Of a stretch of 64,000 bases of DNA, positions 23,250-24,629 are shown piece by piece. The notes under the pieces are model-generated. The model did not search any database. It saw only the letters and a program-made list of their open reading frames with translations, and was not told the origin of the DNA. Position 1 is the first letter of the stretch. Every line of letters begins with the position of its first letter. A program made the translations under genes and the position numbers. Source of the DNA: Eledone cirrhosa (lineage: Eukaryota); the NCBI GenBank assembly GCA_964016885.1, contig OZ024743.1, positions 8,370,001 to 8,434,000 of the forward strand. The letters are read 5' to 3'.

Positions 23250-24265
23250 GTATATCAGAGATATAACAATTTATAATATTTTTTTCTCTCTTTCCTCTTT
23301 ATCTAGGTAGCGTAAATGTTTTATTCATAAGTTGTTATTGTTTAACCGGAGGTCAGCTCTGATTGAGCAGACCTATAATTGTTTCTACTTTTGGCACAAG
23401 GCCAGCATTTATCCCAGTGCATTACTGGTGCTTTATTTTATTGACCCTGTAGGGATGAAAGGAAAAGCTAACCTCGGCGGGATTTGAACTCAGACTGTAA
23501 AGAGGTGTAACTCTATGCTGCAAAGCATGGCGTCCAACCTTCTACCGATTCTGCCTATCCACCACCCTTAATTAGAACCATTTCAGTTGTAACCAGCCTG
23601 ACCTTCTTTCAGATACTGTGTATCTAGGACTACATTATCTAATGTGTTATCTCATTCCATGACTGTTGGGTGTAATTTCGGTTAAATTTAGCTGCTACTT
23701 CTAGCAGGCTGAGGTGGTCATATAGGAACTTCCACATTGGGTCAATTATTGGCTCATTCATGATTTACTTTATAACAATACTCGTTCTTCCAAAACGTGT
23801 CTATACAGCTTACATATCTCTATGACTGCAATCATTCTATTACATTAGTCTGATATTGTTACATCCTCAACACATCATACACAGCTATGTTTGTGTATGT
23901 AATGCTTTATCTTTGTTATGTGATGATATTATAAGCTGAACAGTTCTGCTAATTTTGGCATATGATATTGTATTTTATACTATGTTTTCAGATATTTCTG
24001 TCAAAGTAACTTCTCAATAAATTAATCTCTCTCTCTCTCTCTCTCTCTCTCTCTCTCTCTCTCTCTCTCTCTCTCTCTCTCTCTCTCTCTCTCTCTTTCT
24101 CTCTCTCTCTCTCTCTCTCTATATATATATATATATATATATATTAATAAGAGGAATTCCAACTTTGTCTGATTCTGATTTACTCGTTTTATTTACAATC
24201 CTTTAAAATTTATAATGGTATTATAATGAAATAGTATGATAGAATATTAAATGTTAAGTGTTAAT

Positions 24266-24304
24266 TGAACAAGTACTTTCATGCTTTCGCAATCTTCAGG
24301 TTCA
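24266..24304 (-). ncRNA. Mirror copy of the minimal hammerhead motif
   Basis: Exact reverse complement of 24382-24420. Confidence 0.8.
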
Positions 24305-24381
24305 TAATGTGTGGTGACACTCAAGTTTGCAAGTTGAAAATTACAGTTGAAAATTGCAAACTTGACTGTCACCACACATTA

Positions 24382-24420
24382 TGAACCTGAAGATTGCGAA
24401 AGCATGAAAGTACTTGTTCA
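24382..24420 (+). ncRNA. Minimal Type I hammerhead ribozyme motif
   Basis: TGAAC-CTGAAGA-TTGC GAAA GCAT-GAAA-GTAC-TT-GTTCA: helix I 5 bp, full core, helix II with GAAA loop, 1-bp helix III with palindromic GTAC. Confidence 0.85.
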
Positions 24421-24629
24421 ATTAACACTTAACATTTAATATTCTATCATACTATTTCATTATAATACCATTATAAATTTTAAAGGATTGTAAATAAAAC
24501 GAGTAAATCAGACAAAGCTGGAATTCCTCTTATTAATATAATCTTCTATACACAATCATACACACCCGTGTATATTTATCTATCTATCTATATATATATA
24601 TATATATATATATATATATATATATAAAG

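What the first reader, a model, noticed from the sequence alone, without database searches (positions are those of the whole stretch)
24140..24540. Minimal hammerhead ribozyme preceded by its own antisense copy in a long intronic hairpin
Seen: 24382-24420 has every Type I hammerhead element (helix I TGAAC/GTTCA, CUGAAGA, helix II TGC-GAAA-GCA, GAAA, single A-U helix III closed by the palindrome GUAC, UU cleavage site). It lies in the 3' arm of a near-perfect 190-bp inverted repeat, so its exact antisense copy is transcribed first in the host pre-mRNA. Known: minimal hammerheads with a palindromic loop III are characteristic of Penelope-like element pLTRs and cleave as dimers, and these elements often leave inverted fragments. 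Inference: the upstream arm would sequester the ribozyme co-transcriptionally and protect the WDR97-like transcript. The long dsRNA is also an ideal ADAR substrate, so editing could in principle unmask cleavage.
Basis: partly seen in the sequence, partly recalled or inferred. Interest (0 to 1): 0.75.

Follow-up and report, generated by a model that had tools for sequence, protein, structure and literature searches.

The report
Penelope stump with self-cutting footprint
This hairpin is one of at least 899 mirror-image stumps left by a very abundant Penelope-type jumping gene, so its antisense arm is likely a by-product of insertion rather than a shield for the host gene, but a second class of about 125 sister insertions starts at the ribozyme's predicted cut site, which likely records the ribozyme cutting in living cells.

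Summary
The hammerhead motif (24382-24420) and the 190-bp intronic hairpin are real. They are the first 198/243 bases of a Neptune/Nematis-type Penelope-like element (PLE), inserted head-to-head in (TA)n. The 34-nt core occurs 5547 times and the short palindrome at least 899 times. The inverted-copy-plus-tail layout is published. Both strands carry antisense-then-sense, so host protection and ADAR unmasking are unsupported.

New: 125 sister palindromes join just downstream of the ribozyme core, against 10, 25 and 43 in equal control zones. In 44 of the first 50 the longer arm starts within -2..+4 nt of the predicted cut. Stronger self-pairing words give only 3-4 joints each. One 8.6-kb palindrome of two intact full-length elements starts there too. 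This likely records cleavage in vivo, for which the papers read give no evidence. It also favours two primings on a sense RNA over the published antisense self-priming idea. A second start site or a template-wide RT block is not excluded. No RNA run was available. The scan noted similar PLE stumps in other genomes, mostly rejecting cleavage there.

The parts
24120..24139 (.). (TA)n target microsatellite, left flank (preceded by (CT)n from about 24026)
   Evidence: 52 of 57 tail-less ends in sister inserts are followed by TA
24140..24332 (-). Tail-less arm: PLE unit positions 197 down to 11, inverted
24266..24304 (-). Minimal hammerhead on the minus strand (the antisense copy on +); predicted cut 24271|24270
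24333..24342 (+). 10-nt junction filler, a copy of unit positions 3-12; likely from end joining
   Evidence: sequence; similar fillers in sister copies
24343..24540 (+). Tailed arm: from the inferred transcription start (ACAG..., position 0) to the inferred first RT start site (position 197)
   Evidence: TATA-like box 31-33 nt upstream in ORF-bearing copies
24382..24420 (+). Minimal type I hammerhead; predicted cut 24415|24416
24408..24415 (+). 8-nt palindrome AAGTACTT, predicted intermolecular helix III
   Evidence: duplex -6.6 kcal/mol; shared by sister ribozyme families (required by the search pattern)
24541..24585 (+). 45-nt PLE tail, present on one arm only; its end is the inferred second RT start site (position 242)
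   Evidence: the tail continues into the 5' UTR and ORF1 in full-length copies
24586..24626 (.). (TA)n target microsatellite, right flank
23083..23232 (+). Host WD40 gene exon upstream of the intron that holds the insert
   Evidence: tblastn with P0067, E 1e-16
30023..30154 (+). Host WD40 gene exon downstream of the intron
   Evidence: tblastn with P0067 and P0071

Best explanation
The hairpin is a short head-to-head insertion of a high-copy Penelope-like retrotransposon, likely made when the element's protein nicked both strands of a (TA)n tract and primed two cDNAs, at two internal sites (positions 197 and 242), on the same sense RNA, ran both to the RNA's 5' end and joined them there. Shown: identity of the element, copy numbers, one-tail/no-tail ends, matching arms, and two classes of 5' end. 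Inferred: for this copy and most short ones the RNA was uncut and began at the transcription start, so the whole ribozyme is duplicated in both orientations and would be silenced in the hairpin as a side effect. In a minority (roughly one in ten short palindromes) the RNA had likely been cut by the hammerhead, so both arms begin at the scissile bond and lack the core.
For: Identity: ORF-bearing copies carry RT (RVT_1), a CX4CxxC linker and GIY-YIG upstream of the same arm. Unit length is 4202-4208 nt in partial tandems. Abundance: 5547 exact cores, control 0; 899 short palindromes. Ends: 40 of 50 cut-class inserts have exactly one tailed arm, 8 were not fully scorable, 1 tail/tail, 1 none. The same 197/242 asymmetry is seen in long inserts. 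It matches the two RT start sites and extension of both strands shown in vitro for an anole PLE (PMC11167929). Same template: arms disagree at site 186 in 0 of 19, 0 of 18 and 1 of 47 pairs, against 0.41-0.50 at random. Not a simple fold-back: among 9 inserts of one junction class, the arm that reaches the cut is tail-less in 4 and tailed in 3, 2 unscored. Cut class: 125 places against 10 (zone inside the ribozyme), 25 (downstream) and 43 (between start and ribozyme) with equal-sized patterns. In 44 of the first 50 the longer arm starts at positions 71-77 (cut 72|73), 2 further down, 4 further up. Perfect 8-nt palindromes give only 4 (AAGTACTT) and 3 (ATTATAAT) joints. 4 of 15 inserts have both arms starting exactly at the cut. 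The junctions are diverse and occur in both subfamilies. L176 holds two ORF-intact full-length arms, 99.9% identical over 4331 nt, both starting at position 72. The junction is also in read-derived contigs, as the deepest listed joint in 2 of 4 runs (probably the assembly's own sample). Mixed start/cut inserts number at most 70 against about 640 expected if the arms stopped independently.
Against: No RNA data and no cleavage assay. Microhomology blurs the ends: the longer arm maps exactly to position 73 in only 3 of 50 inserts, and to 75 in 16. In mixed inserts the enrichment near the cut is weak (37 vs 25 in a control). The ribozyme departs from the consensus (no G10.1-C11.1 pair; U at position 17, recalled as the weakest NUH). 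It is predicted to fold poorly in the longer 5' UTR (helix I probability 0.39 at 85 nt, 0.01 at 243 nt). In the anole PLE, ribozyme mutants did not change insertion and no reads ended at the cut (PMC11167929). Joints centred at positions 82-109 were not sampled, and only 50 of the 125 were examined. Arms do differ at variable sites in some inserts (positions 33-37: 7 of 20; positions 89-90: 4 of 18 in the query-biased set), so some use two templates or were converted. Earlier scan notes on other genomes mostly rejected cleavage-set joints.
Confidence: 0.7

Rival explanations
1. One reading: the antisense arm was kept to silence the ribozyme and protect the host WD40 pre-mRNA, with ADAR editing as a release switch.
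For: The insert is intronic and the ribozyme is predicted to be fully sequestered. Extensive A-to-I editing in cephalopods is recalled, not tested.
Against: At least 899 copies of the same layout; symmetry on both strands; arms nearly identical, so young; simulated editing never freed helix I (0 of 25 in 10 conditions); a monomer has no stable helix III.
Confidence: 0.05
2. The second class of 5' ends comes from a second transcription start at positions 73-75, not from cleavage.
For: T72|G73 fits a pyrimidine-purine start, and an Inr-like TCAATT lies at 75-80 (sequence; consensus recalled). Sixteen inserts map to 75, and most show G-TCAATT, which could be a copied cap. It would also explain why both arms share the end.
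Against: No TATA-like box lies about 30 nt upstream (that is the ribozyme core), whereas the main start has one at -31 to -33. Coincidence with the scissile bond would be chance. The G-TCAATT, GAAC and AATT junction classes can all be derived from two cDNAs ending at 73 (reasoning).
Confidence: 0.12
3. Reverse transcriptase is blocked at the folded or dimerised ribozyme (helix III edge) on uncut RNA, or ends join there because of local self-pairing words.
For: The cut site and the 3' edge of helix III coincide by construction. TGTT/AACA and AATT lie just downstream and shape 25 of 50 junctions.
Against: Independent stalling predicts many more mixed than double inserts; observed at most 70 against 125, with about 640 expected. 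Stronger words elsewhere give 3-4 joints. Most cDNAs pass the ribozyme (899).
Confidence: 0.12
4. Head-to-head inserts arise by self-priming on an antisense template (Arkhipova et al. 2013, PMC3846280) or by fold-back of one cDNA.
For: It explains near-identical arms and junction palindromes; proposed in print.
Against: Junctions cluster at two sense-RNA landmarks (inferred start and predicted cut). A tail-less first strand cannot template a tailed second arm, yet that geometry occurs in 4 of 9 inserts of one class.
Confidence: 0.1

Closest known systems
Endonuclease-positive Penelope-like elements, Neptune/Nematis type: inverted 5'-truncated pLTR plus one-sided tail (PMC3846280; PMC8557442)
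   Same: RT + CX2-5CxxC linker + C-terminal GIY-YIG; partial tandems; head-to-head inverted copy; tail on one end; (TA)n targets; TATA and Inr-like motifs in the pLTR; optional ORF1 separated by a frameshift.
   Different: Here the commonest short product is a solo two-arm pLTR piece starting at the inferred start site. A second class starts at the predicted ribozyme cut; I did not find that in the passages read. The tail is 45 nt rather than 30-40.
[quoted passage not shown]
   Same: Core, short helix I, no stable helix III, palindromic 15-16 region, predicted dimer. That paper already notes dual motifs 100-700 bp apart on opposite strands.
   Different: Helix II is only 3 bp and lacks G10.1-C11.1. 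That paper had no in vivo evidence and low in vitro activity; here there is an indirect genomic footprint.
Poseidon element PAc of the green anole (Frangieh et al. 2024, PMC11167929)
   Same: Two internal RT start sites that delimit the tail; both target strands cut and extended; AT-rich targets; uncut RNA as the main substrate.
   Different: They saw no reads ending at the cut and did not account for inverted pairs; here a minority of inserts start at the cut.
Non-LTR retrozymes (10.64898/2026.07.22.740005)
   Same: Non-coding, pLTR-related repeats with type I hammerheads.
   Different: Retrozymes are head-to-tail arrays; these are head-to-head pairs cut directly from an autonomous element.

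Membership tests
EN+ Penelope-like element (Neptune/Nematis type) | RT followed by C-terminal GIY-YIG in the parent element | tested here: met
   RVT_1 E 6.5e-7 and GIY-YIG E 2.4e-6 in L061; YLDD and YVGQT in L176
EN+ Penelope-like element (Neptune/Nematis type) | CX2-5CxxC linker before the endonuclease | tested here: met
   CNDNRCGTC in L176; definition from PMC8557442
EN+ Penelope-like element (Neptune/Nematis type) | pLTRs from partial tandems | tested here: met
   Direct repeats 4202 and 4208 nt apart in L061 and L062
EN+ Penelope-like element (Neptune/Nematis type) | Inverted 5'-truncated copy and one-sided tail | tested here: met
   (40 of 50 tail plus no tail)
EN+ Penelope-like element (Neptune/Nematis type) | (TA)n target bias | tested here: met
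   52 of 57 tail-less ends followed by TA; the arm itself ends in ATA, so some microhomology is included
EN+ Penelope-like element (Neptune/Nematis type) | Clade placement by RT phylogeny | not tested
   No reference PLE set was held; Neptune versus Nematis is left open
Minimal type I hammerhead | Core CUGANGA and GAAA, NUH site | tested here: met
   the site is CUU
Minimal type I hammerhead | Helix I of 4-5 bp with covariation | tested here: met
   86% of cells paired, 4 of 4 pairs change on both sides, 0 of 500 shuffles reach the score. Only 9 rows from about 4 families; the window row supplies most of the changes
Minimal type I hammerhead | Palindromic positions 15-16 allowing a dimer | tested here: met
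   AAGTACTT; predicted dimer -16.4 vs monomer -4.2 kcal/mol
Minimal type I hammerhead | G10.1-C11.1 pair (highly conserved, not absolute) | tested here: not met
   U.U flanks a 3-bp helix II; sister families have G-C. Filed as a variant motif, activity unproven
Minimal type I hammerhead | Match to an Rfam hammerhead model | tested here: not met
   none up to E 10 in 20000-29000
Minimal type I hammerhead | Self-cleavage | not testable with these tools
   Only the indirect footprint; no RNA run listed
Non-LTR retrozyme | Head-to-tail array with a ribozyme in each unit | tested here: not met
   Short copies are solo or head-to-head
MITE or foldback DNA transposon | Equal terminal inverted repeats of a transposase family | tested here: not met
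   Ends are unequal (197 and 242) and the arms are pieces of an RT element

The most novel reading that the evidence does not exclude
The genome holds a fossil record of a Penelope-element hammerhead cutting in the germ line: over a hundred insertions, including an intact 8.6-kb double element, begin at the scissile bond. All head-to-head inserts are two first-strand cDNAs primed at two sites of one sense RNA. Cleavage would remove the cap and leader and switch a minority of transcripts from message to template, possibly through a double hammerhead that cuts both partners.
Probability: 0.55. Interest if true: 0.7.

Novelty: new member of a known kind. Interest (0 to 1): 0.5.

Why it matters
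The hairpin itself is ordinary. What PLE hammerheads do in vivo is described as unclear (PMC8557442), and the one biochemical study found no RNA ends at the cut (PMC11167929). A countable class of insertions that starts at the predicted cut, with controls, makes cleavage testable from genomes alone. It also names a young, ORF-intact family for assays and discriminates between the sense and antisense template models for PLE inverted repeats.

Tried and rejected
Rfam: no hammerhead match. Energy of the isolated motif: not above shuffles.

Two-template idea (arms from different source RNAs held by a ribozyme dimer): suggested and largely rejected. The apparent signal at site 175 came from choosing hits by likeness to the query.

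Post-insertion central deletion as the source of the cut class: rejected because self-pairing words nearer the centre, including a perfect 8-mer, are rarely used. Re-amplification of one founder junction: rejected because 22 of 50 junctions fall outside the common classes and both subfamilies contribute. Splice acceptor at the CAG: rejected because copies keep ACAG and carry no upstream exon. ADAR release: not seen in simulation (G and N stand in for inosine, minimum-energy folds only).

No RNA holder listed, so expression and editing are untested. No contig spanned the locus, so an empty allele could not be looked for. Host gene: two word-based protein searches were blank and the Atlas gave no answer; one search supplied the homologues. 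One search used a structure shifted by one column; one search is the corrected count. The TA-flank count used a wrong pattern and was redone.

Lunse et al. 2016 could not be read; it is known to me only from a review's passage and reference list. Paper searches listed no paper whose title or abstract start reports PLE insertions starting at the ribozyme cut. Subscription journals and supplements were not seen, and Frangieh et al. Fig. S2 may bear on this.

Full report
Observation. My descriptor scan of the 64-kb window found this motif on the + strand (core at 24387), its mirror on the - strand (24299) and one unrelated candidate at 4211. The hairpin folds at -285 kcal/mol. The 66-nt motif alone is no more stable than shuffles, and no Rfam hammerhead matched. 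tblastn with a cephalopod WD40 homologue places + strand exons from 2109 to 51605, with the hairpin in the intron between 23232 and 30023. The homologues are named only 'uncharacterized', so WDR97 is unconfirmed.

What it is. A search with one arm gave 57 matches from 40 scored of 203 candidates; the 42 full-length ones are 96-100% identical. The exact 34-nt core occurs 5547 times (control 0), and short head-to-head pairs at least 899 times. In several copies the arm follows RT and GIY-YIG coding sequence. Full units are 4.2 kb and run, numbering from the ACAG at window 24343 as position 0: inferred start (TATA-like box at -31 to -33), hammerhead (39-77), position 197, a 45-nt tail to 242, ATG at about 281-284, a 449-aa ORF1, then a 775-aa RT-linker-GIY-YIG frame shifted by -1. 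The window insert is positions 197 to 11 inverted, a 10-nt filler, then positions 0 to 242, between (TA)n tracts. This is the inverted pLTR with one-sided tail described for PLEs (passages of PMC3846280, and PMC8557442). Opposite-strand ribozyme pairs 100-700 bp apart were noted in PMC4209133 (parts 1-2 of 4 read).

How it was made. In PMC11167929 (parts 1-2 of 4 read) an anole PLE protein cuts and extends both target strands and starts reverse transcription at two internal sites that delimit the tail. Here two-arm inserts end at 197 on one side and about 242 on the other (40 of 50, 8 not fully scorable). The arms almost always share subfamily marks: site 186 differs in 0 of 19, 0 of 18 and 1 of 47 pairs against 0.41-0.50 by random pairing. 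Positions 33-37 do differ in 7 of 20 unbiased pairs (duplicate loci of one place were dropped first). In one junction class the arm reaching furthest is tail-less in 4 of 9 and tailed in 3, which a single fold-back cannot give. I infer two first-strand cDNAs, usually from one sense RNA, joined at their ends. That the antisense copy comes first is then a geometric consequence and holds on both strands.

The ribozyme. Core, helix I and the AAGUACUU palindrome are present, and the predicted dimer is far more stable than the monomer. A looser pattern found 75 matches (control 1), mostly two or three other families with the same core and different helices; a few listed copies lie near PLE-like coding sequence. 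Helix I covaries across 9 rows (few families, and the core was fixed by the pattern). This family lacks G10.1-C11.1, which PMC4209133 calls highly conserved, and has U at position 17, so it is likely a weak ribozyme (recalled).

Footprint of cleavage. With equal-sized patterns (two 13-nt anchors, gap 20-50), joints number 43 between start and ribozyme, 10 inside the ribozyme, 125 in the zone around the cut and 25 further down. I fetched the first 50 of the 125. The longer arm starts at positions 71-77 in 44, further down in 2 and further up in 4, although the pattern allowed arms up to position 41. The predicted cut is 72|73. Three junction classes (11, 9 and 5 inserts) can all be derived from two cDNAs ending at 73 annealed through GTT-AATT-AAC; 22 others are individual, and both subfamilies take part. 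Read by eye, 4 of 15 inserts have both arms starting exactly at 73. Perfect 8-nt palindromes, better substrates for microhomology joining, account for 4 and 3 inserts. Mixed inserts (one arm from the start, one from this zone) number 70, against about 640 if arms stopped independently, so the end is a property of the template. L176 is an 8.6-kb palindrome of two full-length, ORF-intact arms, 99.9% identical, both starting at 72 and ending at 242 and 197 beyond an intact second ribozyme. The junction is present in read-derived contigs (joint 24258 to 24415, depth 88 and 83 against 3-6 for unique flank; likely the same sample as the assembly).

Against this: ends are blurred by microhomology, the mixed class shows little enrichment (37 vs 25), joints centred at positions 82-109 were not sampled, and a second start site or a stable block at helix III would map to the same place. 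I put cleavage at about 0.65-0.7.

Sequestration is predicted but needs no selection. Simulated editing destroyed core adenosines and never restored helix I. No RNA run was listed.

Earlier notes. One search showed 8 of 11 notes on PLE stumps in other genomes. Most judged cut-site joints to be chance or microhomology; one mentioned a rare class that may record cutting. They are unchecked, and I used them for the self-pairing-word control and the pointer to PMC3846280. Look-ups by place and by sequence were empty.

Other papers: I saw only part 1 of 5 of 10.64898/2026.07.22.740005, and only passages of PMC6765202, PMC8782182, PMC12602865 and PMC6431247.

Verdict. The hairpin is an ordinary PLE stump and a new member of a known kind. 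The family's second end class is the finding worth following. Interest 0.5.

Noticed in passing
L176 (G000:C1:21871500-21881300), 493-9262: 8.6-kb palindrome of two ORF-intact full-length elements, 99.9% identical, both starting at the predicted ribozyme cut; a very recent insertion.
   Followed up: yes
L061, L062, L176 (both arms), unit position about 1550: ORF1 (449 aa) and the RT-EN frame overlap in the -1 frame at a U-UUU-UUA heptamer in 4 of 4 full-length arms, which suggests programmed frameshifting; ORF1 with a frameshift is listed as optional for PLEs in PMC8557442. ORF1 has no convincing Pfam match.
   Followed up: partly
L146-L175: At least two other repeat families with the same core and AAGUACUU palindrome but G-C-closed 6-bp helix II; some form head-to-head pairs with tails in (TA)n. 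They are natural replicates for the cut-site test.
   Followed up: partly
L096-L145 versus start-site palindromes: The subfamily with GA at positions 89-90 makes 28 of 50 cut-class inserts but 5 of 19 scored start-class inserts; it may cleave more often or be of a different age.
   Followed up: partly
start-site junctions: An extra G often stands before ACAGTTG, including cases where the other arm is already complete; possibly a copied cap.
   Followed up: no
window 24343-24370: The RNA's first 28 nt are predicted to form an 8-bp hairpin.
   Followed up: no
window 4203-4267 (+): A second hammerhead-like match (CTGATGA ... GAAA ... TA, 8-bp helix I with wobbles, possible 6-bp helix II) from the descriptor scan; may be chance.
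   Followed up: no
window 24630-25920 (+), 27169-27990 (-), 55013-58255 (+): Fragments and a near-complete copy of a LINE with RT and a PHD-like finger (RVT_1 and PHD for the first); RTE type recalled, unrelated to the PLE.
   Followed up: no
window about 20300-22950: Tandem array of a 48-nt unit, open in two frames.
   Followed up: no
window 26175-26988: Another inverted arrangement of a short repeat around (TA)n and a smaller hairpin at 26750-26863.
   Followed up: no
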